A DNA stretch of 64,000 nucleotides, from positions 9,461 through 73,460 of the IMG/VR virus record IMGVR_UViG_3300023273_000426, one strand, 5' to 3'. The translations under genes and the position numbers were made by a program. Positions 47,808-62,623 of this stretch are shown here, one piece after another. The stretch is from a virus. The notes under the pieces are model-generated. The model was given only the letters and a program-made list of their open reading frames with translations, was not told the origin of the DNA and did not search any database. Position 1 is the first letter of the stretch. Each line of letters opens with the position of its first letter.

Positions 47808-50800
47808 TTAGAATGCGCCACCATCTATAGTATCTGTCCAAACTGGTGTATTATCGCCGCTGCCGACTACTGTTAGTACTTGGAACGATTCGCTAGTATC
47901 ACTTGTGCCTGCTGCATCAGTTACTTGAACATCTGTATCTGCATTACCATAAAGTATACCATCTGTGGTAAATGTGCTTACACCTGTACCACCATGTGCA
48001 ACTGCTAGATCATTAGTTAAACTTACTGTTCCAGTTACATGGAAGTCATGATTTACAGTTAATGTACCTGTAGCATCACCAATACTAATAGTTGTTGCTG
48101 CGCCACCAAAGTTGATAGTTGTAGCAGTATCATTTAACAAGTTAAATGTTGTTTGATTTGTGCTCAACACATCGTTGTTGATTGCTAAGTCTGTTGTAAA
48201 GGTTGATATATCTTCACTTAAACGTAGTTTCTCAACACCAGATGTTCCACCGATCATAGTGCTAAACACCATATCAAAGTCTTCTTGCAGTCCGGTGATA
48301 TCTTGTGCTATAACATCAATCTGACCTGATGTTTCAAAATTATCATTTGCTGTTTCAAGTTCAAACTTAATACCTGTACCACTTCCTGCTACCGGAGTAC
48401 CACTTATACTATGATGTGCAAAAGTCATAGGATACACAATATCATCTGCTGCACTATCTGGTGCATTAGTTATAAGTTTTAATCCATCTTGTGCAAGTAA
48501 TGTGTTTGCTCTAATATCAACAGTATCTGTTGCTAAGTTAGTAAGTTGTAATACACCACTGTTGTTGCCACCGATGTACTTTTGTACATGTAGTTCTTCA
48601 CCTATACCAACACCACCTGCAACAACAACTGCACCACTTTGATAAGTCTGACTTGGCGTTGTGTTGTTGAACGTTGTTATTACACTACTATCAATGTTAA
48701 AGTATGAGTTTCCAATAATAGCACGTTGTGATCCATTTGTAAAGAACTCAAGTTCATCGTTGTTAGCACCTGGTGATGTTTCGGGACGTATAAATGTATT
48801 TTGATCTACATCTTTAACACCGCCTAGTGAGCCCCAAGCAACGCCGTCGTATCCTTCAAATACTAACGTATCAGTGTTGAATCGTACTTGTCCTGTTGCT
48901 TCTACTGGACGAGCTGCTGTATCACCAACTGGTAGCTGTAAACTTGTAACACTGTCAATAATAACTATTTCATTATTGATAGTAAGTGTTCCAGATATTG
49001 CACCTATGTTAATATTTGTAGCTGCACCAAATGCATCAATGCGTGTAGCATTAGTGTTGAGTACATTAAAAGTACCAGTTTCGTCTGTAATAATGTTAGT
49101 ACCATTAACTTGTATGTCTCTATCTGCTATAATATCTCTATCAGCAGTAATATCAACACCAGCGTGTATGTTTCTCTGTGCGCTTAGGCCGCCTGTGATT
49201 TGTACTGCGCCAGTAACATTATCTGTAGCATCATCGTTGTTTAGTATAATGATATTTGGAGTTGTTCCAAACTCAACTACTTCCGATCCGTCAGTTGTAT
49301 CTATTACAATATAGTCACTAACATTTTCGTGTATTCTCAATACATTGGTATTGTTGTCTGGTAAGTCAATATCAGTTGCGCCGTTGATGTCAATAGTATC
49401 AACTGCTCTATCACTACCTAATACAACACTGCCGTCTGCTGTAAAATCAATGCCAACATTTAAACTTTTAGCAATGCCGACGCCGCCGTCAATAACAACC
49501 GAGCCTGTAGTTGTGCTAGTTGATTCTGTTGTATTTTCAACAAGCAATCCTGGGCGTATACCAAATGTAATAAGTTCTTCGTCTGTACGTGTGTTAATAC
49601 TAATAAAGTCTAACGAACCTTCTGTACTAATACTATATGCTTGTAAACTTTCATCTGGAATATTTAAACTAACATCACCTGTGAATACAATATCACCGTT
49701 AACTGTTAAACTACCTTGCACAAGCAAGTCAGGATTAACTGTAAATGTACCTTCTGCTGCACCCATAATAATCGAAGTAGCATCACCAAATGCATTAATA
49801 GTTGTAGCACTTGTGTTCAACAAGTTAAATGCACCTGCTGTATCTGTGCTAATCACATCACCGTTAACATCAAAGTCACCGTTGAGTGTAATATCTCCTT
49901 CTACAGTTCCGCCTGTTAGTTTGTTTAAATATCTGTTTTCAACGTATGTACTAACAGCTTTCTGTGTAGGTGCAGTATTAAAGTCTTGTGTACCAATACT
50001 TGAAATTAAGTTTGCATTGTCACTAACTTCTTTAAGTTCTACACCAACCGGAATGCCGTCTCTAATAAACGGTCCAACACTAGTTAGACCTTTTAGATCA
50101 ATTTCGTTAGCATTAAGTGTAATACTACCTGTAAGTGCGTTAACACCAAAGAAGTTACCAACTCTAAAGTTACCAATTTGGTCAACTGTACCACCTGCAA
50201 ATACTTTACCATTGCTTGTTTCGATAATCTCTTGTTCAGGAACTGCTGTGCCGCCAAAGAACGGAAGTGCATTATATGTAACACCGGCGCCAACATATTC
50301 AAACGCATGTCCTGAAGTACTAATAGTTGAAACATTATACAAGTATGCTTGCTGTGTTGTTTCGACACTTATGATACCCGGGAATACTTTAATAGATGCA
50401 CTACCACCGTATGTTGCATTTAGATCGTTGATTGCAGTTTCAACAATAGTTTCTGTTGCTCCAACAATAACATTTCTTTCGGTATTGTATATACTACTAC
50501 CAAGTTCGTGATTATGTCCTACTTCGTGCCAGCCTGTGGTATAACCTTGTATTATAGATAAGGCAACTCTATCAACTAATAGTTCAATGCTTTGTCCTAT
50601 TGTAGTATCGGCATCTGGAATAGTTGTAATCTGTGTTGCTGCGTTTCCAAAACTTTTAGTAACAACTTCGTTGTTTGCAACTTGACGCATTAGATCGCCT
50701 AGTTTATAATAACTATATGCACTAACTAGTGTTTGATCAACATTGCCTACTTTAGCTGCACCTAATATAGTGCCACTGTAGTATGCTTCGGCTGCTCTAC

Positions 50801-53800
50801 GAGATTGTTTGTTACCACCGTACATTGTATCATATAATACAGCGTCAATAATATATCCAGTATCTCTTTCACAAACTTCAATGCCATATTCAAAACCTAT
50901 TATATTGTCTTGAATATATGTAATAACGCCGTTTTGTATATTTGTTTTTTGTGCAAGCAATGCATTAGCTGCCGATCTTGTTGTTTGAGGAAGCCAACTA
51001 AAGTCTGGATTAACTTCTCCTGGAACACCAACTAATGTATTGTTTTCAATAGCACCTTTGATAATACCTATTAGGCCAACTGCTGTTGAACTTTCAATAC
51101 TTGTACCATAAGCACCACCTAAAACTTGTGATTCTGGATTTCCAACAGTTGGAGTTACACCAATACCTTCTATACATTTTAAAGCAACATCTTGTAAGTG
51201 TGTATATGCTGCAACTGTGTTTGCTCGTTGACTTTCAGGAATATATGCTACTGCTCCTAAGAAGTATGCATTAGTAGCAATGATTGTTTGTATATTACCT
51301 GTGTATAGCAAATCGTATGCTACTGCATCAATAATAAGACCTGTGTCATTTCTACAACTTGTTTGGTTGTATGAGAACGCATCATAGTTGTCTTGAAGTT
51401 CAGTTATTGTGTTAGCAACAATAGTATCTTTTGCTGCTTCTAAACTTGCAATAGCAGTTTGTGCGCCAGCAGTTGCCCAAGTAGTATCTGGGTAAACTAC
51501 AGTTGGAAGATTATCAACACCATCAGTGATAACATTTTGGAATATTGTTAATAGTTCATCTGCTCTAGTTACTTCAGTTGCTGTTGCAGCGCCCGCAGTT
51601 GTATCTTGTACTACACCTGTTTGTTCAGGATCATCGTATAATGTATCAAGTAATATACTTCCAAGTAACGTGTTTACCCATCCTAATGCTGCTGCTGTTT
51701 CTGGCTGTTGTCCTACAACTTGACTTACATATCCAACATAGTATGCTTGTGCTGCTTGGTAAGTAGCACTATTACCGCCATATAGAATGTCATATGTAAG
51801 AGCATCAACAATATAACCTGTATCTCTTTCACACTTTGCACTATTAAATGTAAAGCTTCTTGTAAATGTTTTATTAATAAAGTTAATAACATCTGTTTTA
51901 TAAAACTCTACTTTTGTAACACTGTTTAGGTCTGCAAAGTCTGTTTGCAGCTCTGCGGCTGTCCAAGTAATGTCTGTAAGAATATCTGCTGGAATAGAAT
52001 CTATATTGTTGTTGTTAACAACATCTTCAACTATTTGCAACAAGTCTTGTGCTTCGCCAGCTGTACCAGCATCAGCTCCTGGATTTGATGTATTTTGTGT
52101 TACGCCTACTTGTTCTGTAGATCCGTGTGTAATATTTTGTATAACATCAGATGCTACATTTGCCAGTTCGTTAAATGCTGCAACTGTAGCTGCTTGTTGT
52201 CCTGCTCCAAGTTGAGAAGCTGCGCCAACAAAATAACTTTCTGCTGCATTTTTAGATGCCAGGTTGCCGCGATATATGATATCATAACAAATAGCATCAA
52301 TGATGTATTTGGTGTCTCTTTCACATTTTGCTGCATCAAATACTAGAAGTGGAAAGTTATTAGTAACATATGCGCTAGTTTCTTTTGCTAAGAAGTCTCT
52401 GTTTGCTTGTAGCTGAGTTACTGCCAACGGATAGTTAGCATTTAATCCACTATCTGGGAATGTTAACGTATCTGCCGAAGCGTCAGTACTTACAACACCA
52501 TTGTTAATAATATCAAGTATTTCATTAAATCCTGCAAGTACACGACTTCTAAATGTTCCTGACAACTGTGTTTCGTTGGTATTAATAGTGTCTCTTAGAT
52601 ATTCAATAGATTTTACTGTTTGTAAAAGTTGTGATCCAACAGCTACCGCAGCATTTGCTCTTTGATATGCAAGTCCTGCTGTTACTTGATTGAAGTTAGT
52701 TCCTATTGCTGCGTCATAACACACAGCTTCAATCATAATACCTACATCTCTAGCACACTTTGCTTCATCATATGTAAAGTTCTGGAAGTTATTTGCAATC
52801 CAAATAATAACAGATTCTTTTACATCATCTTTATTACCTTTGATAGTGCTATATGCTTGTTGTAAAACACTAGTTGACCAAGTAACTGATGGTAGTTGTA
52901 CCGATGGTAGTCCAGCAATGTTTCCTGCTGTAATAACATCTTCGATGATCTGTACCAGTCCTGATAGATCATCAACTTCTGTTGAACTTGCTGGAGTTCC
53001 GCTAGTATCTTGTACTAAAACGTTGCCTGGGCTATTTTCAACAACTGCTTCGATAACAATATCGCCAACAACTTGTCCAAGTCTGTTGTATGCTGCTGCT
53101 GTTGCTTCTGCTTCGCCTGCACCTAACTGACTTGCTACTCCAACAAAATATGATTGTGCTGCTAGTTGCGTTGCACTGTTGCCGCCATATAAAATATCGT
53201 GACATAATGCATCAACAATATATCCAACATCTCTTCTACATTTAGTTGCATCATAGCTTAGTAATGGATAGTTAGCAGTAATCCATCTAATGATTTCTTC
53301 TTGGATATATGCTTTGTTGGCAATCAACTGATCTTTTGCTTCAACAGCGTTTGTTGATGGTAGCGTTCCAGGTGTTGGAAATACTAATGCATCTGCTGCA
53401 TCGTCTGTACTGATATTTCCGTTTTCTAAAATATCAATAATCTCATCCATTGCAGATTCAGCTCTTGGTTCTGCTGTGTCGCTTAATCCAAGTTTTACTA
53501 TTTCTTTTTTAAGCTCTCTTAGTGCTCCTGATGTTTGTATTAGCTGATCATCTTGTAAATCTGCGCTACTTGCTCTTTGATATGCAAGACCAGCTGTTAC
53601 ACTGTTATAGTTTGTTCCTAGTGCAACATCAAGTGCAACAGCATCCATTATTAACCCAATATCTCTTTCACACTTTTCTTGATTGTATGTAAAGTCTTTG
53701 TAGTTATTTGTAATAAATGTTGCTGCTTCTTTTTGTAAGAATGCTCGGTTTGCTACCATTTGATCTTTTGCATTGATCTGCCCAGTAGTTGCACCAGTTG

Positions 53801-56800
53801 GGTTGGTCCATGTTAATGTATCTGCAAATCCAATGCCGTTTGTAACAATATCAACTACTTCGTCAAATGCTGCGCCTACGGCTGTTTGTGTTGTTGCATC
53901 ACTAGCTGTTGCTGTACTTGCTTCGCCTTTGGCAAAGTTAATAGCTGCTAGTGTTTCTGTTAGCTGATCCGATAATACTGCTCCGGCATTTACTCTTAGA
54001 TATGCTAGTCCGTTGGTTACACTGTTGTAGTTCGTTCCAAGCAATGCATCGTATCCGGCACCTGAAATAATCAGTCCTGTGTCTCTTTCGCATTTAGCTT
54101 GATCATATACAAAGTTGTTAGCATTAATGTATGCAATAACTTCTTCTGTTAAAAAGGCTTTGTTTGCAACAAACTGCGAATGTGCGTCAATAAGTGCATC
54201 AGCTGCTGGACCTGGTTCTGGATATTCTCTGCCTTCACTCGGTAGTTGGTTAAACTCAATAATATCAAATATATTATCAAATAAGTCAGATACCTTATTC
54301 TGGAATGCTGCTTCACCGTTTGCTGCTGCTACAGTCAAACGCTTTGCTTCTCTTAGTGCAATAATGGTTGCAGGCTTTTGTTCGCCATTTAAGTAAGCAA
54401 CATTTGCACGATTGTAAGCTAGTCCTGCTGTAATACTGTTTTGGTTTGTTCCAAGTTGTGCGTCTCTATATACTGCATCAACCATATATCCAACATCTCT
54501 TTTACATTTTTCTTCGTTGTAGGTTAGTGTTGGATTGTTGACTAAGTTATATGCTATTGCATCTGCAATAATAGTTGAGATAACCGAAAGAAGTTTATTC
54601 GAAGCATTTACTTGTCCTGCTGGCTCATTTTCTGTGTTCGGATAAGATTTAGTAGGTAAGCCAGCAACACTTTGTGCATCAATAACACTTTCAACTATTT
54701 GCACTAATCCGTCTAATAATGTAGCTTCGATTTGTGTAGCATCACCGCTTGTAAAATCTTGTGTTTCTGCATTACCTGATGTTTTTGTAACACTAAGTCC
54801 TCTGATAATACGTTGTACAATAAATCTTACTCTTGCAAATGAATCTTCAAATGCTTGTTGATTTGTATTAGTAAAGTTACTCCAAGTTACACTTTTAAAG
54901 AACCATGTTGTTTCTTGTACTGTTGCATTGTTACCACCATATAAAATATCATATGAAAGAGCATCAACAAAGTTTTCAACATATGCTTCCCATTCTGATG
55001 CAGTATAAGTTAGTGTACTATCAAGAGTATCTAGGTAAGCAATAAACTCTGCAACAATAAAATCTTTGTTTGCTTGTAAATGATCTTTTGCATCAATACC
55101 GTTTTGTGTAACACCAACACTTTCTGCATATGTAGGCAAAATACCTGTACTATCACCATCGTCAACTACATTAATAATAATATCAAATGCTTCATTGACT
55201 CTAGTTACCGAAGTAGGATCTGTGTTAACTTCTGTATATCCTAATACTAACGATCTTAAATAAGCAAAACTTGAAACATAAAGATTTTTAAACCTTGTTC
55301 TTGATCTAAATTCTTTTGCTTGTCTAACTATAACATGGTCGCCACCTGTAGCAACATAATAAGAAAGAGCAGTTAAGAATACTGTCATATCTTCGTCAAA
55401 CCAGGCTTGATTATAACTTAGTTCTGTAAACTGATCATTAATATAAGCAGTTAGTTCTGCAATAATAAAGTCTCTATTTTCTAGAATATTATTTTTTGCT
55501 TCAATGATTTCGCCATCTATACTACTTAAATCATTAAACGAGGATTCGATCTGATCTCCAACAAATGGAATGCCAGTACTATCACCTGCTGCAAGTGTGC
55601 TAGTAACAATATTAAATCGTTGATCAAGTTCCTCTTTCATTGCAAGATTTGAAGTTAACGCTTTCATTTCGTCACGTGTTGCTTCTAATGCATATATAGT
55701 AGGAGCAAGTTGATCAAGAATAACTTTAGTAGAAGTAGCTCTTAAATAACTTTGTGCTGCTGTAGTTGTTTGATAATATGTACCCATAACAATGTCACTA
55801 GTTAGTGCATCTATAATACGTCTAACATCGCGTTCGCAGGTTTCTTGATTATATACAAAAGGTTGTTCTGCAATAGTATTTGAAGTAATATAATAAAATG
55901 TGTCGTCGCCGTCAAACTTAATAACAGAACCAGTTTGTGGTTTGTCTCGCAAACTTGAAATAGAAATCGTAGAGTTTGTTCTTAGATTTACTGTTCCAGT
56001 TGCCTGTAGTGTGGCACCGCCACCTGTAAATGTAATAGTTGGAACACTTTTGTATCCACTACCATTGTCGCTAATACTAACTGCTGCAAGTTCGCCTGTA
56101 GTTAAATCAACTTGTGCTGTAGCAACTGCTGTTGTTCCGCTTAGTGCTTCTGGCGCACTGATAGTTACTGTAGGTGTACTAGTGTATCCAGTTCCTGCAA
56201 AAGATAATGTTACACTGCCTACTGTCGAATAATAGTCTTCGTCGGCTGTTGCAGTAGTATATGCTACCGGATAGTATCCATCTGCTACAACACCATTTGT
56301 GCCAAAGTCACTAACACTGTTTGAAATACTTAAATATCCACCTTTGGTGGTTAAGAAACCTGTGCTACAGAAAACCGAGAAGCAACTAACAATCTGTGTA
56401 TAACCAAAGTTAGTAACATGGAACCCAATGCCCCCTTGTGAAATCTGTGTAAAAGCATCTGCAACAAAACTGAATACAAGTGATGCTGGGTCATAATCAT
56501 CGCCATCGACTAAAAGACCACCGCCGCCACCGTTTGGGTTAATTTGTTTTTCTAGTGGAACATTTGGGTTATCTGCCAACAATATTGGCTTTGCACCTGG
56601 TGTGATTCCTTCGATTTGAACAGTTTCAAAAGGAATAAATTCAGTACCATCGTTCAGCCAAGGACCGTTCATATTAGTACAGTTTTGTACATATGGTGAT
56701 GTTGTAACAAGTGCGCCTGGGCGTATTCTTGCACACCAACCTGGCGCACGTAATCCTCTAAATGTTATCTGATACAAATAACACGCATTGCCCATAAGGA

Positions 56801-57209
56801 AGAAATCCGATGTAGGATTCTTCGGAAACACTCTAGTATTTCTAAGTTCGCCTTGTCCAGTAACAGTAACAAAATCTCTCAATGTTATTGGATTGTTTTC
56901 ATAGTAGTCGCCTGGCGCAACAATAATAGTTGAACCAATCGGAGCTACTTCTGATGCACGTTTTATACTAGCAAATGCGCCATTTTTATCTGCACTTCTA
57001 CCATCATTGTCGTCATTTCCATCTTCAGTAACATAATATACGTTAGTAACCTTTGGACCAGTTGTATCACCTGTGGTGATCATGTTGGCATTTACACGAA
57101 ACTCCTTGCCCTCGGCAAGGTTCATTTCCATGTCGCCATCAGATGTGAGAATAAAGGTTTTATCCCCTATTTTTCTGCTATGTATCGACTGTCTTTTAAT
57201 ATAACTCAT
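47808..57209 (-). CDS. giant virion structural/fibre protein (3133 aa)
   Basis: N-terminal beta-helix-like domain (YYV..DG.D.NDG, SPYVQNC) paralogous to the neighbouring giant gene, many F.Y...KCERD.G.I.DA...D repeats and C-terminal IDGGAF. Confidence 0.8.
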   Translation of the reverse strand: MSYIKRQSIHSRKIGDKTFILTSDGDMEMNLAEGKEFRVNANMITTGDTTGPKVTNVYYVTEDGNDDNDGRSADKNGAFASIKRASEVAPIGSTIIVAPGDYYENNPITLRDFVTVTGQGELRNTRVFPKNPTSDFFLMGNACYLYQITFRGLRAPGWCARIRPGALVTTSPYVQNCTNMNGPWLNDGTEFIPFETVQIEGITPGAKPILLADNPNVPLEKQINPNGGGGGLLVDGDDYDPASLVFSFVADAFTQISQGGIGFHVTNFGYTQIVSCFSVFCSTGFLTTKGGYLSISNSVSDFGTNGVVADGYYPVAYTTATADEDYYSTVGSVTLSFAGTGYTSTPTVTISAPEALSGTTAVATAQVDLTTGELAAVSISDNGSGYKSVPTITFTGGGATLQATGTVNLRTNSTISISSLRDKPQTGSVIKFDGDDTFYYITSNTIAEQPFVYNQETCERDVRRIIDALTSDIVMGTYYQTTTAAQSYLRATSTKVILDQLAPTIYALEATRDEMKALTSNLAMKEELDQRFNIVTSTLAAGDSTGIPFVGDQIESSFNDLSSIDGEIIEAKNNILENRDFIIAELTAYINDQFTELSYNQAWFDEDMTVFLTALSYYVATGGDHVIVRQAKEFRSRTRFKNLYVSSFAYLRSLVLGYTEVNTDPTSVTRVNEAFDIIINVVDDGDSTGILPTYAESVGVTQNGIDAKDHLQANKDFIVAEFIAYLDTLDSTLTYTASEWEAYVENFVDALSYDILYGGNNATVQETTWFFKSVTWSNFTNTNQQAFEDSFARVRFIVQRIIRGLSVTKTSGNAETQDFTSGDATQIEATLLDGLVQIVESVIDAQSVAGLPTKSYPNTENEPAGQVNASNKLLSVISTIIADAIAYNLVNNPTLTYNEEKCKRDVGYMVDAVYRDAQLGTNQNSITAGLAYNRANVAYLNGEQKPATIIALREAKRLTVAAANGEAAFQNKVSDLFDNIFDIIEFNQLPSEGREYPEPGPAADALIDAHSQFVANKAFLTEEVIAYINANNFVYDQAKCERDTGLIISGAGYDALLGTNYNSVTNGLAYLRVNAGAVLSDQLTETLAAINFAKGEASTATASDATTQTAVGAAFDEVVDIVTNGIGFADTLTWTNPTGATTGQINAKDQMVANRAFLQKEAATFITNNYKDFTYNQEKCERDIGLIMDAVALDVALGTNYNSVTAGLAYQRASSADLQDDQLIQTSGALRELKKEIVKLGLSDTAEPRAESAMDEIIDILENGNISTDDAADALVFPTPGTLPSTNAVEAKDQLIANKAYIQEEIIRWITANYPLLSYDATKCRRDVGYIVDALCHDILYGGNSATQLAAQSYFVGVASQLGAGEAEATAAAYNRLGQVVGDIVIEAVVENSPGNVLVQDTSGTPASSTEVDDLSGLVQIIEDVITAGNIAGLPSVQLPSVTWSTSVLQQAYSTIKGNKDDVKESVIIWIANNFQNFTYDEAKCARDVGIMIEAVCYDAAIGTNFNQVTAGLAYQRANAAVAVGSQLLQTVKSIEYLRDTINTNETQLSGTFRSRVLAGFNEILDIINNGVVSTDASADTLTFPDSGLNANYPLAVTQLQANRDFLAKETSAYVTNNFPLLVFDAAKCERDTKYIIDAICYDIIYRGNLASKNAAESYFVGAASQLGAGQQAATVAAFNELANVASDVIQNITHGSTEQVGVTQNTSNPGADAGTAGEAQDLLQIVEDVVNNNNIDSIPADILTDITWTAAELQTDFADLNSVTKVEFYKTDVINFINKTFTRSFTFNSAKCERDTGYIVDALTYDILYGGNSATYQAAQAYYVGYVSQVVGQQPETAAALGWVNTLLGSILLDTLYDDPEQTGVVQDTTAGAATATEVTRADELLTIFQNVITDGVDNLPTVVYPDTTWATAGAQTAIASLEAAKDTIVANTITELQDNYDAFSYNQTSCRNDTGLIIDAVAYDLLYTGNIQTIIATNAYFLGAVAYIPESQRANTVAAYTHLQDVALKCIEGIGVTPTVGNPESQVLGGAYGTSIESSTAVGLIGIIKGAIENNTLVGVPGEVNPDFSWLPQTTRSAANALLAQKTNIQNGVITYIQDNIIGFEYGIEVCERDTGYIIDAVLYDTMYGGNKQSRRAAEAYYSGTILGAAKVGNVDQTLVSAYSYYKLGDLMRQVANNEVVTKSFGNAATQITTIPDADTTIGQSIELLVDRVALSIIQGYTTGWHEVGHNHELGSSIYNTERNVIVGATETIVETAINDLNATYGGSASIKVFPGIISVETTQQAYLYNVSTISTSGHAFEYVGAGVTYNALPFFGGTAVPEQEIIETSNGKVFAGGTVDQIGNFRVGNFFGVNALTGSITLNANEIDLKGLTSVGPFIRDGIPVGVELKEVSDNANLISSIGTQDFNTAPTQKAVSTYVENRYLNKLTGGTVEGDITLNGDFDVNGDVISTDTAGAFNLLNTSATTINAFGDATSIIMGAAEGTFTVNPDLLVQGSLTVNGDIVFTGDVSLNIPDESLQAYSISTEGSLDFISINTRTDEELITFGIRPGLLVENTTESTSTTTGSVVIDGGVGIAKSLNVGIDFTADGSVVLGSDRAVDTIDINGATDIDLPDNNTNVLRIHENVSDYIVIDTTDGSEVVEFGTTPNIIILNNDDATDNVTGAVQITGGLSAQRNIHAGVDITADRDIIADRDIQVNGTNIITDETGTFNVLNTNATRIDAFGAATNINIGAISGTLTINNEIVIIDSVTSLQLPVGDTAARPVEATGQVRFNTDTLVFEGYDGVAWGSLGGVKDVDQNTFIRPETSPGANNDELEFFTNGSQRAIIGNSYFNIDSSVITTFNNTTPSQTYQSGAVVVAGGVGIGEELHVQKYIGGNNSGVLQLTNLATDTVDIRANTLLAQDGLKLITNAPDSAADDIVYPMTFAHHSISGTPVAGSGTGIKFELETANDNFETSGQIDVIAQDITGLQEDFDMVFSTMIGGTSGVEKLRLSEDISTFTTDLAINNDVLSTNQTTFNLLNDTATTINFGGAATTISIGDATGTLTVNHDFHVTGTVSLTNDLAVAHGGTGVSTFTTDGILYGNADTDVQVTDAAGTSDTSESFQVLTVVGSGDNTPVWTDTIDGGAF

Positions 57210-57552: not shown

Positions 57553-58602
57553 TTAAAAAATAATACTATAAAGCAACGCTTTATTTCTGCTTACAAGTTC
57601 GTCTTCGGTACCGTCTGCGTTTATAAAATATAAACCAGTACCGCCGTCTCCAAGTGTTTTACTATATAAAGTACTACCTGCACTTGGTGGGCTTGCTGGC
57701 GTTACTTCTTCTGTAAAGTTTAACCAGCCATCAATTTGTACTCTTCCTGTTCCTGATCCTTTTAAGATTATATCACTATTAATACCCGAGGTAGTAACAA
57801 TATTATCATCAAATCTTAAATCTTCAAACTCAACTCTAGATTGGAAAAACGTAGCAATAACACTTTGATCAACTGCTATTTCAACTCGACTAGTTCCGCC
57901 ACCTGTTTCGGTATCGTATACCTGAACACTTGTCGGATCTAATGTACCTGTTGTTATCTTATCCTGGAAGTTGTATGTAAAATATCCATTTACATAATCA
58001 AGCAATCCTCTAGTATTAACTAAAGCATCATCATTTACAGGGACACTAAGTCCGTCGGATTGCGAAGGATCTGGAGTAATATCACTTCCAGTATAAGGCC
58101 ATATTTGTTTTTCGTAATCAGTAGTACCAGTAACATCAACGACACCAGTTCCGCCGCCTATCAAATATAAGTTTTGATTTTCAGTGGAAATAATACTACT
58201 AGTATGAATGCCCGAAAGATTTCCACTTTCTAGTTTGAAAATATACGCACCTTCATTAGCCGGTTGTGCGCCATTTCTTATGGTTTTTAATGTTTCATCA
58301 TACAAAAATCTTGCATTAAACGCATCTGGGCCACGATCAATGATAACACCAGAGGTTCTGCCGTTACCATCGCCAATGTCAGTGATCCCGCCGTCTCCGC
58401 CGGGATCGCCATTATTAATAGTGATAGTTTTATCATCAACTATTAATTCTGCCGACCCAATACTAGTTTGATCGCCTAGTACATCTAAGTCGCCATTAAT
58501 AGTAACCTTACCTGTTAACCCAACGTCAAGAACAATCTCTCCATCAGGATTTACAGATATGGTATACTTGTCAGTACCTATGCGATTAAAACGTTCAGCC
58601 AT
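57553..58602 (-). CDS. virion structural/fibre-associated protein
   Basis: 349 aa with INGDLDVLG fibre-like repeats and C-terminal ELVSRNKALLYSIIF. Confidence 0.55.
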   Translation of the reverse strand: MAERFNRIGTDKYTISVNPDGEIVLDVGLTGKVTINGDLDVLGDQTSIGSAELIVDDKTITINNGDPGGDGGITDIGDGNGRTSGVIIDRGPDAFNARFLYDETLKTIRNGAQPANEGAYIFKLESGNLSGIHTSSIISTENQNLYLIGGGTGVVDVTGTTDYEKQIWPYTGSDITPDPSQSDGLSVPVNDDALVNTRGLLDYVNGYFTYNFQDKITTGTLDPTSVQVYDTETGGGTSRVEIAVDQSVIATFFQSRVEFEDLRFDDNIVTTSGINSDIILKGSGTGRVQIDGWLNFTEEVTPASPPSAGSTLYSKTLGDGGTGLYFINADGTEDELVSRNKALLYSIIF

Positions 58603-58612
58603 TTAAGTTTCC

Positions 58613-59014
58613 TTAAACTGCTGTTAATACAATGTAATCGTTTGTCGAATCGTTTTCTAATGCCCAAGTATATCTATTACCCGAGAAGTCAGTAGCAACA
58701 CGTTTTGTGATTTTTGCAAGATTAACTTCGGCGCCTGAGTTTGAATCTACACGGCCGAACATGCGCATTTCGCCTAATGCACTTGGTGTACCATTTTTAA
58801 GAACACAAGTTGTTGTACTTGTTGAATCTTTAATGTTCGGCGAACCTACGTTTGCATCTTGTGTACAAACAAAAGTTTTTGCTCCACGCTGCTTAACTAT
58901 AGCACCGTCTGTTCTTAATGATGCATCGTAGAATTCTACTCTTACACCAGTGTTGCCATCAGCATCGCCGATAACATCAACACCGTTAATATCTTTTTTT
59001 AGTGGACGTCCCAT
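58613..59014 (-). CDS. hypothetical late protein, probable virion/head decoration
   Basis: 133 aa starting MGRPL. AAGGAG RBS and a late promoter at 59101-59108. Confidence 0.6.
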   Translation of the reverse strand: MGRPLKKDINGVDVIGDADGNTGVRVEFYDASLRTDGAIVKQRGAKTFVCTQDANVGSPNIKDSTSTTTCVLKNGTPSALGEMRMFGRVDSNSGAEVNLAKITKRVATDFSGNRYTWALENDSTNDYIVLTAV

Positions 59015-59108
59015 TTTGTTTCTCCTTATGACGTTCTAGGTCTACACAGATGGTATTCTGCGTAAGTCCAGTTTTTCTGGCTCTTTTATACCTACACAAG
59101 TATTTATC
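59015..59108 (-). promoter_or_regulatory. late promoter plus structured 5' leader
   Basis: GATAAATA, then stems TAGGT/ACCTA, CCAG/CTGG and TACGCAGA/TCTGTGTA before the RBS. Confidence 0.5.
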
Positions 59109-59138
59109 TAAAAGAATAAAATGGGTTATAATGTTCGT

Positions 59139-59172
59139 AAAAAAAGGCCTACCGCATCAGTGGGTAGACCTT
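59139..59172 (-). terminator. intrinsic terminator closing the candidate ncRNA
   Basis: AAGGUCUACC...GGUAGGCCUU followed by a U tract. The stem contains a G-U pair that is valid only on the minus strand. Confidence 0.75.
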
Positions 59173-59391
59173 CTCTATAATATATGATAGGGAGGATTAC
59201 ATTCTACCTCCAACAACCTAGTAAGTATTTTATACATTCGGTTGCGCCTAGTATCAGATAGTTATATCCAAAATACGCATCTTCATGTCTCCATGCTCAT
59301 ACGCTGCCACTACAGCTACTAGCCAAGTTATCGTCCTTACGAAACAACATTTCCTTGCACTATCTAACTAAAGACCGTCGTCTTTGTTATG
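59140..59391 (-). ncRNA. candidate structured non-coding RNA (about 250 nt), family not recognised
   Basis: No ORF of 60 aa or more. Upstream promoter, downstream terminator, and several nested stems including a GAGA tetraloop hairpin. Confidence 0.55.
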
Positions 59392-59396
59392 TAACT

Positions 59397-59424
59397 AATA
59401 TAACATATAAAAAAAGAAAGTCAA
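59397..59424 (-). promoter_or_regulatory. sigma70-like promoter driving the candidate ncRNA
   Basis: TTGACT-16 nt-TATATT with TGn extension, the same -10 as other early promoters here. Confidence 0.6.
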
Positions 59425-59627
59425 CCAGTTTTTTCTATTTTTCTAAGATTTGATGCATATTTTTTTCCATTTGATAATATTTCGTCGTATTCAACTACAT
59501 CACCTAATAATGCTTTAAAATCTTTTGTTTCAAAAAGAACATCGTACAATTCCGGACCCCATTCTTTAGGTCTTATTATACTATACTTTCTTTTTTTGTT
59601 GTATTTTATTATTTGTCCTATTGGCAT
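59421..59627 (-). CDS. cold-shock-domain-like (OB fold) small basic protein
   Basis: 68 aa following the Csp layout: G.I.KYN.KRKYSII.P...DVLF...GDVVEY....GKKYASNL. Confidence 0.55.
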   Translation of the reverse strand: MPIGQIIKYNKKRKYSIIRPKEWGPELYDVLFETKDFKALLGDVVEYDEILSNGKKYASNLRKIEKTG

Positions 59628-59657
59628 ATTATATTACTCCATGCAAATAGTTATCAT

Positions 59658-59684
59658 AAAAATAGACCCCGTAGGGTCTATTTT
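59658..59684. terminator. terminator after the major capsid gene
   Basis: AAAATAGACCC-CGTA-GGGTCTATTTT inverted repeat. Confidence 0.8.
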
Positions 59685-59704: not shown

Positions 59705-60874
59705 TTACGAGAAGCTTAGGTTGTTTGCAGTTACTTCTACTTTTTCCAAGTAGTCAGCTGCGTTACCTAGAGACGAAGCAGTGTTCGATAGCTCAACATA
59801 TCCATAACGTGTCATGAACGAAACTGTTGGTTCGAATGTACTTGGATCTAGGACAACACCTGAAGACATAAGTGGGATGTATGGGCAATAGAATGCTGCT
59901 GCATCTGATTCACTTGTACCTTTGTAACCAACTAATACATCATCATCTGATGCATATGTGTTTACATAGATCTTCATTGCGTTGTTCAATGTACCAACCA
60001 TTTTAGTGTTAGTTGGTGCTTCAAAAGTACCTTCAGTTGTACGTGCAAATGCTGAAGTTGTAGCACTTTGTAGAACTGTTAGGATTGCTGGTGATACAAC
60101 TGCCCAGTTACCTGCGCCACGACGTGTACGCTGTGCGATGCGGTTAGCTGCACGGTTAACTAGTACTGCAAGTGCAGCATGTTCGTCACCAACAAAAGTT
60201 GCTGTACCACTAACTGCTGCTTGGTCAAATGTATCTGTACCTGTACCAGCTAGTGTGTTAAGAGATGCTAGGACCTCTTGGTCGATCTCAGCAGTAATCT
60301 CTTGAGCAAGTGCTGCCATGATTTCTGCTTCAACGTCGATGCCGTGCTGCGACTGTGCGTCTTGTGCGGCTTCGAATGTCCAACGTGCTGATAGCTTACG
60401 TGTTTTAGCTTCAACAGTTTGCTTTAAGATTTGAATTGACAAACGGTTACCCGCTGCGCCTTCAAGTGAAGCTGTTGGTGCTGGTGCATTTGTACCGTCA
60501 CCTGAATATGCTTCAGCAATCTTAAATGGACTTAGTGCTTCTTCACCAGCTATTGCACCGCTTGCGCCTGTGCCTACTGTGTCGCTATAGCGAACACGTA
60601 GCGTGTGAATCTGGCCAACTGGGCCAGTCATTGGTTGTACGCCTACAATCTCGTTTGCGATGACTGTTGGCATAACACGTCTGATCACTGGAAGGATCAC
60701 ACGGTTTAGTGTTGCGATGTTACCGGCAGATGTAGCACCCGCAGTTGCAGTTTCAGCCAAATACCTACGGGTATTTTCTAGGGTTGAAGCCATTACTGCT
60801 TTCTTATTGCCTTGAAGGCCTTCAAGAAGTGCTGACTTGGTATCATTCCAACGACTTTCTAGTAGTTCTGACAT
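59705..60874 (-). CDS. gp23: major capsid protein
   Basis: LENTRR, PVIRRVMP, GVQPMTGPVGQI, EAKTRKL.ARWT.EAAQD..HG.D.EAE...EITAEID.E, FYCPYIPL and TRYG motifs. Confidence 0.96.
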   Translation of the reverse strand: MSELLESRWNDTKSALLEGLQGNKKAVMASTLENTRRYLAETATAGATSAGNIATLNRVILPVIRRVMPTVIANEIVGVQPMTGPVGQIHTLRVRYSDTVGTGASGAIAGEEALSPFKIAEAYSGDGTNAPAPTASLEGAAGNRLSIQILKQTVEAKTRKLSARWTFEAAQDAQSQHGIDVEAEIMAALAQEITAEIDQEVLASLNTLAGTGTDTFDQAAVSGTATFVGDEHAALAVLVNRAANRIAQRTRRGAGNWAVVSPAILTVLQSATTSAFARTTEGTFEAPTNTKMVGTLNNAMKIYVNTYASDDDVLVGYKGTSESDAAAFYCPYIPLMSSGVVLDPSTFEPTVSFMTRYGYVELSNTASSLGNAADYLEKVEVTANNLSFS

Positions 60875-60887
60875 TGGTATCTCCTTA

Positions 60888-61982
60888 TTATAATCCAGCT
60901 AGACGTTTAAGATCAACTACGTTTGAGTCGATTGCGTCTGCTTTGATGTCATTGTGTTGTGTTCGGTTGCCTGTTACTTCTTTTGCCTCTGATAGTACTG
61001 CCTTCTTCTTCGCTGGAGTATTACCGTCTATTACCGCCGGCAGGTATTTGTCAAACGATGCTCGTAAACGAGATGTTTGAACTGATTCCAGTAAGTCTGT
61101 CATAATGTCACGTTGGTCGTTGCTCAATGGCGAAACCAATGCATTAATAGTGTCTTTGCGGGTGTTTGATTCGTTAATCGATTTAACTTCGATTGACTTT
61201 GCTTCCGCAAGTTTGATCGCTTTAGCCGCTGCTTGACGTGCTTCTACAATTTGTTTGTTTTTTGTATCTACAACTTTAAGCAGTTTTGATGTTTCTGAAC
61301 TTTCATTCAAATAACTGTGTTGATATTCGTTAGCAAATGCTTCGAATAGCTTACGGCCAAAATCATTTTCACGTGCTTGATCAATATCTTCTTTTAGTGC
61401 CGAAATTTCTTTCTTAAGTCCTTTTGACACTGCTTCTGATACTAATGCTGCACTTTTCTTAATAAAGTCAGTTTTAACTTTATTAACATGTGCTTTGCCT
61501 TCACGTACTAAACGTACTTTTGTTTCGGCAAGATCTTTTTTATCTTCATAAAACTCTGCAAGTTCTTTTGCAAGTGATTCAACTACAAACTCTTCTAGAG
61601 CAACAAACTTGTCTTTTGTTACTTTTTGATCTGCGTGTAGTTCCTTGATTTCTTTTGCTAGTTGTTCACTAACAAATGATTTCATTAAATTGGCATTTTT
61701 ACGCTGTGCAACTGCAAACTTAGCTTTTGCTTCTGCTAGTTGTTTGCGGTCATCGTGGAACTCTGCAATTTCTTCTGCTAGTTTTTCACTGAGCATAGCA
61801 TCAATGGCTTCCACCATTGTTGTTTTGTCATGTGCATATTTTTTAGCAAATTCTTCGCGTAGTTCCGCAGTGGCTTGAAGTTTATTTTCTTCAACTTTAG
61901 CGTTCCATGCTTCCTCTAGTTCTGAACGCACTTCTTCCGATAGTGCTGAGTTTTCGAAGAGTGATTTAAGTGAGTCTAACAT
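60888..61982 (-). CDS. gp22: prohead scaffolding/core protein
   Basis: 364 aa coiled-coil between the protease and the major capsid gene. Confidence 0.8.
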   Translation of the reverse strand: MLDSLKSLFENSALSEEVRSELEEAWNAKVEENKLQATAELREEFAKKYAHDKTTMVEAIDAMLSEKLAEEIAEFHDDRKQLAEAKAKFAVAQRKNANLMKSFVSEQLAKEIKELHADQKVTKDKFVALEEFVVESLAKELAEFYEDKKDLAETKVRLVREGKAHVNKVKTDFIKKSAALVSEAVSKGLKKEISALKEDIDQARENDFGRKLFEAFANEYQHSYLNESSETSKLLKVVDTKNKQIVEARQAAAKAIKLAEAKSIEVKSINESNTRKDTINALVSPLSNDQRDIMTDLLESVQTSRLRASFDKYLPAVIDGNTPAKKKAVLSEAKEVTGNRTQHNDIKADAIDSNVVDLKRLAGL

Positions 61983-61999: not shown

Positions 62000-62623
62000 T
62001 TAGCGGAGTTTGCTTATTACATCTAATAAGCTCTCTTTTAAATATTTTTGTGCCTGTTTATCGCCTTGTACTTCCCTAGATGTTAGGAACGCCTTATAAC
62101 CGCCTCGGGTGTTCATAAGGTGTTCGTAAATTGGTGTTGGGTAGGCGCCCGGAGCACTTGGCTGGGCAACTACATCTACTGTTATAATCTCAAAATCGGA
62201 AACTTCGCCATTGCCACTTTCGCTGACATTGCCGCTACCTCTCGATGAAACACCTAGTTTAACACCTGCTTCAAGCATTGTTTTAACTAGTTGTCCCATC
62301 GGAGTTGGTAGTATTTTTAGTTTACCGTAACCGTTTGGGCCATCCATCCACATTTCTGTAATCATATGGCTTACACGGTCAATGTTAATGTTAAGTCCTT
62401 CTGGATGATCTACTTCGCCTAGTACTGAAAAACCATTGCTAATCTGCTCGTTGAGCGTGGTGACAGCCCTGCCAATTTCGTTAACGGGATATACACGTTG
62501 ATTTGCGTTGCGTACTCCGCCTTGAATGCAAATACCTTTCATAAAAAGATCTTTGCCTTCATTAGCAGACTCAACAATCACTTTAGCTTGGTCAAAACTC
62601 AAACTTTCACTTAGTAAATTCAT
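62000..62623 (-). CDS. gp21: prohead protease
   Basis: NANQRVYP, LGEVDHP, TPMG, GVSSRGSG and D.VAQPSAP.A motifs. Confidence 0.93.
   Translation of the reverse strand: MNLLSESLSFDQAKVIVESANEGKDLFMKGICIQGGVRNANQRVYPVNEIGRAVTTLNEQISNGFSVLGEVDHPEGLNINIDRVSHMITEMWMDGPNGYGKLKILPTPMGQLVKTMLEAGVKLGVSSRGSGNVSESGNGEVSDFEIITVDVVAQPSAPGAYPTPIYEHLMNTRGGYKAFLTSREVQGDKQAQKYLKESLLDVISKLR

What the first reader, a model, noticed from the sequence alone, without database searches (positions are those of the whole stretch)
59139..59424. Independently transcribed structured ncRNA of about 250 nt beside the capsid gene
Seen in the sequence: an ORF-free unit with its own promoter (59397-59424) and strand-specific terminator (59139-59172). 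Minus-strand stems are AAAGAC/GTCTTT (59385-59370); TTAGATAGT (59367-59359) with ACTATCTGA (59262-59254), enclosing about 100 nt; CATG-GAGA-CATG with a GNRA loop (59295-59284); GCAACC/GGTTGT (59245-59240 with 59218-59213); and GGAGG/CCTCC (59211-59191). The G-U pairs are consistent with the minus strand. I cannot match it to a tRNA, tmRNA, RNase P or known ribozyme. Inference: a possibly undescribed phage RNA, such as a sponge, an anti-defence RNA or an RNP scaffold.
Basis: partly seen in the sequence, partly recalled or inferred. Interest (0 to 1): 0.78.

Follow-up and report, generated by a model that had tools for sequence, protein, structure and literature searches.

The report
Free-standing manA-family RNA gene, jumbo phage
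The flagged stretch is a real folded RNA gene with its own promoter and stop signal in a fragment of a giant phage, but it is a diverged copy of the already catalogued "manA" phage RNA, built here as a gene of its own and not as a switch for the neighbouring gene.

Summary
The unit at 59139-59424 (minus strand) is real. It is not an undescribed RNA: it matches Rfam manA (RF01745) over the whole model at 47.9 bits, below the 55.2-bit gathering score, E 3.5e-9 for the 64-kb window. A model built only from this variant retrieved classic manA RNAs; 18 of the 20 I re-checked score above Rfam's threshold.

The long-range TTAGATAGT/ACTATCTGA pairing does not.

Twelve look-alike copies in IMG/VR contigs keep TTGAC and TATATT invariant around a variable spacer (13 of 13). 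Eight of 13 keep a terminator whose stem changes while staying paired. The next gene (133 aa) has its own conserved GATAAATA late-type box and freshwater-2 leader, also in relatives that lack the RNA.

So the RNA is most likely made as a free ~250-nt molecule, not as a leader. Its function is unknown. A 2026 preprint reports that manA RNAs self-assemble in vitro into decamers and a 60-mer cage.

Metatranscriptome contigs hold the stretch but show no transcript ends.

This scan has already filed the same reading several times on other DNA.

The parts
59397..59424 (-). Sigma-70-type promoter: -35 TTGACT (59424-59419), 16-nt spacer, extended -10 TG-n-TATATT (59402-59397). It overlaps the stop codon of the 68-aa ORF. 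The start of transcription is predicted near 59391-59389 (inference from spacing).
   Evidence: TTGAC and TATATT are invariant in 13 of 13 subfamily copies while the spacer sequence varies (13 of 13).
59182..59388 (-). manA-family RNA body, nine helices (my numbering). P1 59387-59380/59375-59367 (loop GACG). P2 closing helix 59364-59360/59190-59186. P3 59357-59343/59338-59324. P4 59322-59317/59253-59248. P5 59316-59312/59307-59303. P6 59302-59299/59280-59277 plus 59295-59292/59287-59284 with GNRA loop GAGA. P7 59271-59265/59260-59254. P8 59245-59240/59218-59213 plus 59235-59233/59223-59221. P9 59211-59207/59195-59191.
   Evidence: Rfam RF01745, 47.9 bits, model 1-192/192. MFE fold. RNAalifold on 13 copies. 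Coordinates. Joint alignment with classic manA: 94.5% of cells paired.
59139..59176 (-). Intrinsic terminator: 10-bp core stem (59172-59163 / 59153-59144), 9-nt loop, U7 (59145-59139). It starts about 10 nt after the last manA helix and does not overlap it.
   Evidence: -19.1 kcal/mol. Present in 8 of 13 subfamily copies, with stem changes that keep pairing.
59100..59108 (-). GATAAATAC box. It resembles the T4-type late promoter TATAAATA (that consensus is recalled, not from a call). It is the likely own promoter of the downstream 133-aa gene, and marks where the manA unit ends functionally.
   Evidence: An NATAAATA box (GATAAATA in all but L017, which has CATAAATA) lies 78-105 nt before the start codon in 21 of 21 upstream regions of the 133-aa gene family (15 distinct sequences), including loci without manA.
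59012..59082 (-). freshwater-2 RNA motif (RF02980): 5' leader of the 133-aa gene (58613-59014, minus strand), ending at its AUG. It is a neighbour of the manA unit, not part of it.
   Evidence: 43.7 bits here, below the gathering score of 49.9. Above the gathering score in 15 of 20 related loci at the same position.
59421..59627 (-). 68-aa ORF between the capsid gene and the manA promoter. It is a neighbour with no family assigned, and its presence is not coupled to manA.
   Evidence: No PHROG or Pfam hit. Homologues occur without manA in L008-L013 and L016. manA occurs without this ORF in L072, L135 and L079.
59705..60874 (-). Major capsid gene (gp23-like, 389 aa), the upstream landmark of the RNA cassette.
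   Evidence: phrog_138, E 3.4e-103. 66-71% identical to capsids of jumbo phages Phosso, Vibrio phage 2.275.O, PA5oct, CBB and GAP32.

Best explanation
The stretch is a self-contained gene for a diverged manA-family RNA (Rfam RF01745) in an uncultured jumbo myovirus. Host-type sigma-70 RNA polymerase most likely starts about 7 nt after the -10 box (near 59390). It transcribes the roughly 207-nt nine-helix manA fold and stops at the intrinsic terminator (59139), releasing a free RNA of about 250 nt. The next gene (133 aa) is served by its own late-type GATAAATA box and freshwater-2 leader, so the RNA acts in trans and not as that gene's switch.

Shown: family membership, the fold, conservation of promoter and terminator, and the cassette's presence/absence among relatives. 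Inferred: the transcript ends, early timing, and action in trans.

What the free RNA does is not known. My preferred guess, by homology with the manA RNAs reported to self-assemble in vitro, is that it works as a multimeric RNA particle or scaffold and not as a metabolite sensor.
For: Membership:
- RF01745 matches 59181-59385(-) over the whole model. E is 4.6e-11 on 851 nt and 3.5e-9 on the 64-kb window.
- Model R1, built only from 13 copies of this variant, found 46 other full-length RNAs among 100 loci at E 4e-12 to 4e-3. Of 20 of these that I re-scanned, 18 are RF01745 above its gathering score (65-189 bits) at the same coordinates.
- On the joint alignment 94.5% of cells pair, against 63.2% in shuffles and 40-49% when partners are slid. 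53 of 64 pairs show both-side changes.

Own promoter: TTGAC and TATATT are invariant in 13 of 13 copies with a variable spacer.

Own terminator: present in 8 of 13 copies, with one-sided and inserted-pair changes that keep the stem.

Cassette behaviour:
- Among 20 loci that share the 133-aa gene, only L006, L007 and L023 carry the RNA. The other 17 go from capsid (with or without the 68-aa ORF or other small ORFs) straight to the freshwater-2 leader.
- The RNA is 87-92% identical between phages whose capsids are only 77-87% identical in protein. It also occurs between S21 and Hsp20 genes in L074 and L094.

The downstream gene is autonomous: an NATAAATA box (GATAAATA in all but L017) in 21 of 21 upstream regions and freshwater-2 above the gathering score in 15 of 20 loci, regardless of manA.

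No coding alternative exists.
Against: - No transcript ends were seen. The only RNA data are assembled contigs.
- Two of those contigs run from inside manA across the terminator into the next genes (X1 record 1, 58000-59326; X3 record 9, 58000-59306). This could be read-through or DNA carry-over.
- Five of 13 subfamily copies lack the terminator (L045, L072, L074, L094, L135). In L074 and L094 the RNA sits ahead of hsp20 like a leader.
- Among 54 other manA-like hits, 36 are followed within 90 nt by an ORF of 100 aa or more, and only 3 by a terminator within 60 nt. The family's usual layout is therefore leader-like, as Rfam and Weinberg 2010 state.
- The score is below Rfam's gathering threshold.
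- On the single sequence, promoter-like hits are no rarer than chance.
- I found no clear counterpart in this variant of the L8-L9 loop complementarity seen in classic members, so self-assembly is not supported by sequence here.
Confidence: 0.8

Rival explanations
1. It is a cis-acting manA leader or riboswitch, as catalogued. The RNA senses a ligand or condition, and the terminator at 59139-59172 is its expression platform. This would gate read-through from the early-type promoter into the 133-aa gene and the tail/fibre genes beyond.
For: Rfam types manA as Cis-reg, and Weinberg 2010 rates it a probable riboswitch (passages read). Of 54 other manA-like hits, 36 have a long ORF starting within 90 nt. 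RNA contigs bridge the terminator in two runs from different studies. A 6-nt stretch of P9/L9 (GGUAGA; 7 nt in relatives) is complementary to the terminator's 5' arm and could in principle act as an anti-terminator (my reading).
Against: The terminator does not overlap any manA helix. The 6-7-nt complementarity is near chance level, and the same L9 sequence is kept in the 5 copies that have no terminator. The 133-aa gene keeps its own NATAAATA box and freshwater-2 leader in all 21 upstream regions, 17 of them from loci without manA. Downstream genes differ between copies: 133-aa gene, 152-aa ORFs, tRNAs, hsp20. No ligand is known for any manA RNA.
Confidence: 0.13
2. The RNA is both things: a stable free RNA most of the time, with a regulated fraction of read-through that adds early expression of the late genes downstream.
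For: The same evidence as for the two readings above. In addition, contigs cross the terminator, and the family occurs in both leader-like and terminated layouts.
Against: Nothing specific supports regulated read-through. Contigs cannot show single transcripts, and DNA may be present in the RNA libraries (one search says so).
Confidence: 0.05
3. It is not a functional RNA: either a decaying remnant or a small protein-coding region.
For: Only the sub-threshold Rfam score, and the fact that the 4 cultured relatives searched have no copy.
Against: The RNA body averages 94% column identity across 13 copies while flanks diverge or are unrelated. Eight pairs carry compensatory changes within the subfamily. 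The fold z-score is -3.36. The longest minus-strand ORF is 20 aa, and single-base indels occur between copies.
Confidence: 0.02

Closest known systems
manA RNA motif (Rfam RF01745; Weinberg et al. 2010, PMC2864571, passages read; Rfam 14 update, PMC7779021, passages read)
   Same: The match covers the full model. It has the same nine-helix layout: a 5' hairpin with GACG loop, a closing helix, and internal hairpins including a GNRA-capped one. It has the same conserved blocks (AGUG, GUGG, GGUA...GUAAUCC..CC). It starts a few nucleotides after a sigma-70-type -10 box, and it comes from marine or estuarine phage DNA.
   Different: It scores 47.9 bits, below the 55.2 gathering score. The closing helix is GAUAG/CUAUC where classic members have GGGAG/CUCCC. 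P3 and P8 are shortened. The carrier is a jumbo myovirus with a PA5oct/Rak2-type capsid, not a T4-like cyanophage. It is followed by its own terminator and not by an ORF (8 of 13 copies, against 3 of 54 other hits).
manA RNAs solved by cryo-EM (bioRxiv 10.64898/2026.07.01.735769; passages read, figures and supplements not seen)
   Same: Same family. The window RNA keeps a GNRA loop (GAGA) on the helix I number P6. This is the kind of loop the preprint reports in an L6-P6' loop-receptor contact of one decamer-forming variant.
   Different: Those are in vitro assemblies of other family members. My helix numbering is my own mapping. I found no clear L8-L9 or L5-L7 loop complementarity in this variant. 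Assembly of this RNA is untested.
freshwater-2 RNA motif (Rfam RF02980)
   Same: It lies 57 nt downstream of the manA terminator and is the true 5' leader of the next gene.
   Different: It is unrelated in sequence and fold. It is a neighbour, not part of the unit.
phi29 prohead RNA (pRNA) (recalled from general knowledge, no call)
   Same: It is a phage-encoded, separately transcribed RNA of similar size that works as a homo-oligomer held together by loop-loop pairing, and it is linked to head function. I use it only as a model for how a free manA RNA might work.
   Different: There is no sequence or fold relation, it belongs to a different phage group, and no evidence here ties manA to packaging.

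Membership tests
manA RNA (Rfam RF01745) | Covariance-model score at or above Rfam's gathering score (55.2 bits) | tested here: not met
   47.9 bits. Close relatives L007 and L023 score 45.1 bits. The E-value is nevertheless 3.5e-9 for the 64-kb window.
manA RNA (Rfam RF01745) | Match to the whole model with all helices in order | tested here: met
   Model positions 1-192 of 192, not truncated. The same helices appear in the MFE fold and the RNAalifold consensus.
manA RNA (Rfam RF01745) | Conserved sequence blocks of the consensus (GACG loop of the 5' hairpin, AGUG after the closing helix, GUGG loop, GGUA-N4-GUAAUCC-NN-CC) | tested here: met
   All are aligned to the consensus. The 3' block was used as the pattern that retrieved both classic and variant copies.
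manA RNA (Rfam RF01745) | Reciprocal homology: a model of the variant alone finds bona fide members | tested here: met
   R1 (13 variant copies) hit 46 other loci full length. 18 of the 20 re-scanned are RF01745 above its gathering score. L057 and L102 were not.
manA RNA (Rfam RF01745) | Base pairs supported by covariation when aligned with members | tested here: met
   94.5% of cells paired (shuffles 63.2%, slid 40-49%), and 53 of 64 pairs have both-side changes. Caveat: the alignment was fitted to the model's structure.
manA RNA (Rfam RF01745) | Position in the 5' UTR of a protein-coding gene (Rfam type Cis-reg) | tested here: not met
   A terminator follows the fold by about 10 nt. The next gene has its own GATAAATA box and freshwater-2 leader.
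manA RNA (Rfam RF01745) | Self-assembly into pentamer-based oligomers (2026 preprint) | not testable with these tools
   No RNA-RNA complex prediction is available. The loop inspection was inconclusive for this variant.
Riboswitch (generic) | Expression platform whose terminator or SD-masking helix competes with the aptamer | tested here: not met
   There is no overlap between the terminator and any manA helix. Only a 6-7-nt complementarity links L9 and the terminator's 5' arm, and it is also present in copies without a terminator.
Riboswitch (generic) | Specific ligand binding | not testable with these tools
   No ligand is known for manA (passages read).

The most novel reading that the evidence does not exclude
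The manA RNA of these phages is made as a free, abundant RNA that self-assembles inside the infected cell into an RNA-only multimer or cage. It would act in trans, for example as a scaffold, a sequestering particle or a decoy. Its repeated placement directly behind the major capsid gene would then reflect a link with head production and not chance. That placement is seen both in jumbo phages (10 of 13 variant copies) and in T4-like contigs whose capsids are only 32-34% identical (6 loci).
Probability: 0.12. Interest if true: 0.85.

Novelty: new variant of a known kind. Interest (0 to 1): 0.42.

Why it matters
manA has been listed as an orphan riboswitch candidate since 2010. In 2026 it was reported to build RNA-only decamers and a 60-mer cage in vitro, with no known biological role.

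A subfamily that default Rfam scans miss, and that is wired as a gene of its own (conserved promoter, own terminator, portable between genome contexts), argues that at least some manA RNAs act as free molecules. This gives a concrete, small test object (about 250 nt, with predicted ends) for asking whether the assemblies exist in infected cells and what they do. It also suggests that Rfam's 'Cis-reg' label and gathering score for RF01745 need revisiting.

The point is incremental. The family is known, and this scan has already filed the same reading on other DNA.

Tried and rejected
- Default Rfam scan of the window: 0 hits. The match appears only with the E-value threshold.
- tRNA/tmRNA scan of the window: none.
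- blastn of 59000-59640 against 50,697 phage records: only 45-58-nt matches in 8 Enterococcus phage records, which I judged spurious.
- manA search of 4 cultured jumbo relatives (Vibrio phage 2.275.O, Phosso, PA5oct, CBB): 0 of 4. The tool warns that its first look can miss copies. It did miss L006, which is 89-93% identical by blastn.
- manA search of the records behind L008-L022, L024 and L025: 0 of 17. R1 also found nothing in those loci.
- RNA data: contigs from four metatranscriptome runs (X1, X3, X5, X6) cover the stretch. X1 and X3 cover it fully. Contigs give no starts, ends, strand or local depth, so they neither show nor exclude a discrete transcript. A 285-nt contig of a relative in X6 (record 27, depth 18.4) covers just the manA body, but I draw no conclusion from it. 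I do not name a habitat from the small-share runs.
- Anti-terminator idea (L9 GGUAGA against the terminator 5' arm): rejected as unsupported (see rivals).
- Loop-loop complementarity. Classic members show L8/L9 complements that co-vary (ACAGU/ACUGU; AAUGU/ACAUU in L049; UCGU/ACGA in L041). In the window's variant I found only 4-5-nt matches (GUAAG in L3 against CUUAC in P8), too short to count.
Its presence is uncoupled from the RNA.
- Direct-repeat or insertion-site analysis of the cassette borders: looked at by eye, not pursued.
- Literature. Searches 'manA RNA'+motif+phage (3 papers), 'RF01745' (6) and manA+'orphan riboswitch'+phage (5) returned no paper whose listing or read passages describe manA as a free-standing gene or in jumbo phages. 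The search for 'freshwater-2' returned only unrelated papers. Supplements (Weinberg 2010 Additional files; the S-CREM1 tables; the preprint's supplementary figures) were not available and may list contexts or terminators that bear on this.

Full report
**What is there.** All genes around the finding are on the minus strand. In order they are:
- prohead protease, 62000-62623;
- scaffold-like protein, 60888-61982;
- major capsid protein, 59705-60874 (phrog_138, E 3.4e-103);
- a 68-aa ORF, 59421-59627;
- a 406-nt gap;
- a 133-aa ORF, 58613-59014;
- 349-aa and 110-aa ORFs;
- a 3133-aa fibre-like protein, 47808-57209.

The window is part of a 73,460-base IMG/VR virus record estimated to be 20% complete. 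Its capsid is 66-71% identical to those of the jumbo phages Phosso, Vibrio phage 2.275.O, PA5oct, CBB and GAP32. It is therefore a fragment of an uncultured jumbo myovirus.

**Checking the observation.**
- The gap has no minus-strand ORF above 20 aa.
- The promoter-like site is TTGACT-16-TG-n-TATATT at 59424-59397.
- The terminator is at 59172-59139, -19.1 kcal/mol.
- The minus strand folds much better than shuffles (z -3.36, 0 of 200 as good). The plus strand does not stand out as much (z -1.65, 10 of 200).
- A single promoter-like hit means little on its own: the scan found 19 in 7.5 kb against 18.5 expected.
- The fifth, TTAGATAGT with ACTATCTGA, is replaced by two other helices. One is the closing helix GAUAG (59364-59360) / CUAUC (59190-59186). 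The other is a local hairpin, 59271-59265 / 59260-59254. In that hairpin the window differs from its relatives by two both-side compensatory changes.

**What it is.** A default Rfam scan finds nothing. With an E-value threshold, RF01745 (manA RNA) matches 59181-59385(-) over model positions 1-192 of 192. The score is 47.9 bits, below the gathering score of 55.2. E is 4.6e-11 on the local stretch and 3.5e-9 on the whole window.

I tested membership in the other direction.
2. Twelve loci hold copies of exactly the window's variant: L006, L007, L023, L045, L046, L062, L072, L074, L079, L094, L128 and L135. Mean column identity with the window is 94%.
3. A covariance model built from these 13 sequences alone (R1) then hit 46 further RNAs full length among 100 loci, at E 4e-12 to 4e-3. 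It hit 10 more among 42 further sources.
4. Of 20 such hits re-scanned with Rfam at its gathering threshold, 18 are RF01745 at the same coordinates with 65-189 bits. L057 and L102 are not.
5. On the joint alignment the 64 modelled pairs are formed in 94.5% of cells, against 63.2% in shuffles and 40-49% when partners are slid. 53 pairs show both-side changes. This count leans towards the model because the alignment was fitted to it.

I therefore file the RNA as a diverged subfamily of manA that Rfam's threshold excludes.

**Why it looks like a gene of its own.**
- *Promoter.* In all 13 variant copies TTGAC and TATATT are invariant, while the 16-17-nt spacer and the sequence further upstream differ (13 of 13).
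- *Terminator.* Eight of 13 copies have a terminator 38-41 nt after the end of the modelled RNA: window, L006, L007, L023, L046, L062, L079 and L128. The stems differ by changes that keep pairing (GGUAGGCC, GGUAGACC, and an inserted C-G pair in L079).
- *Presence and absence.* The 133-aa gene was used to collect 20 syntenic loci.
  - Only L006, L007 and L023 carry the RNA.
  - L008-L013 and L016 have the 68-aa ORF homologue followed after about 115-125 nt by the 133-aa gene.
  - L014, L015, L020, L021, L024 and L025 have only about 170 nt between capsid and that gene.
  - L018 and L019 hold other small ORFs there.
  - So roughly 290 nt, from promoter to terminator, come and go as one block.
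- *The downstream gene has its own signals.* An NATAAATA box (GATAAATA in all but L017, which has CATAAATA) lies 78-105 nt before the start codon in 21 of 21 upstream regions (15 distinct), with or without manA. It resembles the T4-type late promoter; that consensus is recalled, not from a call. The freshwater-2 motif (RF02980) follows it, above its gathering score in 15 of 20 loci and at 43.7 bits in the window.
- *Portability.* The RNA is 87-92% identical between phages whose capsid proteins are only 77-87% identical (L072, L135, L079, L128). In L074 and L094 the same promoter and RNA sit between an S21-like gene and an Hsp20 gene, with no capsid gene nearby.

**Evidence on the other side.**
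- Five of 13 variant copies have no nearby terminator.
- Among 54 other manA-like hits, the leader layout reported in 2010 dominates. Counts for these 54 hits:

| Feature | Hits of 54 |
|---|---|
| ORF of at least 100 aa starting within 90 nt downstream | 36 |
| Terminator within 60 nt downstream | 3 |
| Sigma-70-type -35/-10 pair just upstream | 29 |
| tRNA gene abutting upstream | 5 |

- RNA-library contigs from two salt-marsh runs of different studies run from inside manA across the terminator into the next genes. Contigs cannot show single transcripts, ends or strand, and may include DNA. This neither proves read-through nor supports a discrete RNA.
- No direct transcript mapping was possible.

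**Mechanism.** I commit to this reading with confidence 0.8:
- a host-polymerase promoter drives a roughly 250-nt RNA (about 59390 to 59139);
- the RNA folds into the nine-helix manA architecture and is released at its own terminator;
- it acts in trans.

Membership and cassette structure are shown. Transcript ends, early timing and trans action are inferred.

What the free RNA does is unknown. The only experimental lead is a 2026 preprint (10.64898/2026.07.01.735769; passages read, figures not seen). [quoted passage not shown] The window RNA keeps a GAGA loop on the corresponding helix by my numbering. I found no convincing loop-loop complementarity in this variant, so assembly is a hypothesis, not a finding.

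The main rival is a cis-acting leader or attenuator of the 133-aa gene (0.13). It is disfavoured because the terminator does not compete with the fold and the next gene is autonomous in 17 relatives without the RNA.

**Comparison with what is known.** Weinberg et al. 2010 (PMC2864571, passages read) describe manA as a probable cis-regulatory riboswitch candidate. They place it in marine metagenomes, T4-like cyanophages and two gamma-proteobacteria, in 5' UTRs of mannose/fructose, nucleotide, ibpA and photosynthesis genes. Rfam 14 (PMC7779021, passages read) corrected its structure. The S-CREM1 paper (PMC9964418, passages read) annotates one copy.

None of the passages or listings I saw describe either of these:
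- a promoter-to-terminator manA gene;
- copies in jumbo phages.

I could not read the supplements.

This scan has already filed the same reading several times on other genomes (e1-5323103, e1-5913195, e1-5913189, e1-5834998, e1-5700537, e1-5401450, e1-5731371). It has also filed the rpsU-hsp20 context (e1-5367393, e1-5367405). I reached my reading before opening those notes, and my tests agree with them.

**Verdict.**
- Observation: largely right, with one stem mis-assigned.
- Interpretation: 'independent ncRNA' is supported; 'undescribed' is not.
- Novelty: a new variant of a known kind.
- Interest: moderate (0.42). It bears on what an old orphan RNA with a striking in vitro structure does in nature, but it is incremental and repeatedly seen.

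Noticed in passing
window 59012-59108 (-); L008-L025, just upstream of the 133-aa gene homologues: The freshwater-2 RNA motif (RF02980) is the conserved 5' leader of a 133-aa late gene family of these jumbo phages. It is above the gathering score in 15 of 20 loci and always ends at the start codon. A GATAAATA late-promoter-like box precedes it in 21 of 21 upstream regions. The 133-aa protein has no Pfam or PHROG family.
   Followed up: partly
window 59421-59627 (-): The 68-aa Lys-rich ORF, whose stop codon overlaps the manA -35 box, has no Pfam hit (E up to 1) and no PHROG hit. Homologues occur without manA, and manA occurs without it. A protein-RNA pair, as another first-stage note proposes (cold-shock-like protein), is therefore not supported by co-occurrence.
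   Followed up: partly
L074:2505-2710(-) and L094:2264-2469(-): The same manA variant (92% identical over 185 nt, same promoter) lies between an S21-like gene (next to an IF3-like gene) and an Hsp20 gene. There is no terminator and no capsid gene nearby. The promoter-RNA block is therefore portable between genome contexts.
   Followed up: partly
L030, L031, L044, L051, L060, L098: Classic manA RNAs (above the Rfam gathering score where tested) also sit directly behind a gp23-like capsid gene in T4-like contigs (capsid 32-34% identical to the window's). In several of them the capsid terminator hairpin overlaps the TTGAC -35 of the manA promoter.
   Followed up: partly
L041:8193-8477, L049:2819-3091, L102:7682-8551, L057:3139-3666: Some manA RNAs abut tRNA genes with a 0-10 nt gap or lie inside tRNA arrays. 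In L057 a manA-like RNA is followed 65 nt later by a permuted tmRNA gene. This suggests they are released as stable RNAs by tRNA-type processing.
   Followed up: no
alignment A2, loops I number L8 and L9: Across classic manA RNAs the L9 loop and a stretch of the P8 loop stay complementary through changes on both sides: ACAGU/ACUGU in most, AAUGU/ACAUU in L049, UCGU/ACGA in L041, UCAGU/ACUGA in L112. This fits a loop-loop contact under selection. The window's variant lacks an obvious counterpart.
   Followed up: partly
slot between the capsid gene and the 133-aa gene: L018:1700-3000, L019:2520-2950; L004 and L005: The slot behind the capsid gene is variable. It holds the 68-aa ORF, the manA cassette, 186-aa plus 82-aa ORFs (L018), a 95-aa ORF (L019), a Hef-like homing endonuclease (PA5oct) or a T5orf172 protein (CBB).
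   Followed up: no
window 47808-57209 (-): A 3133-aa protein with long internal repeats lies downstream of the head genes. It is probably a giant tail fibre or whisker protein of the jumbo phage.
   Followed up: no
window 59659-59684: A palindromic hairpin (AAAATAGACCC...GGGTCTATTTT) lies right after the capsid stop codon. It is a likely two-way terminator that separates the capsid mRNA from the 68-aa ORF.
   Followed up: no
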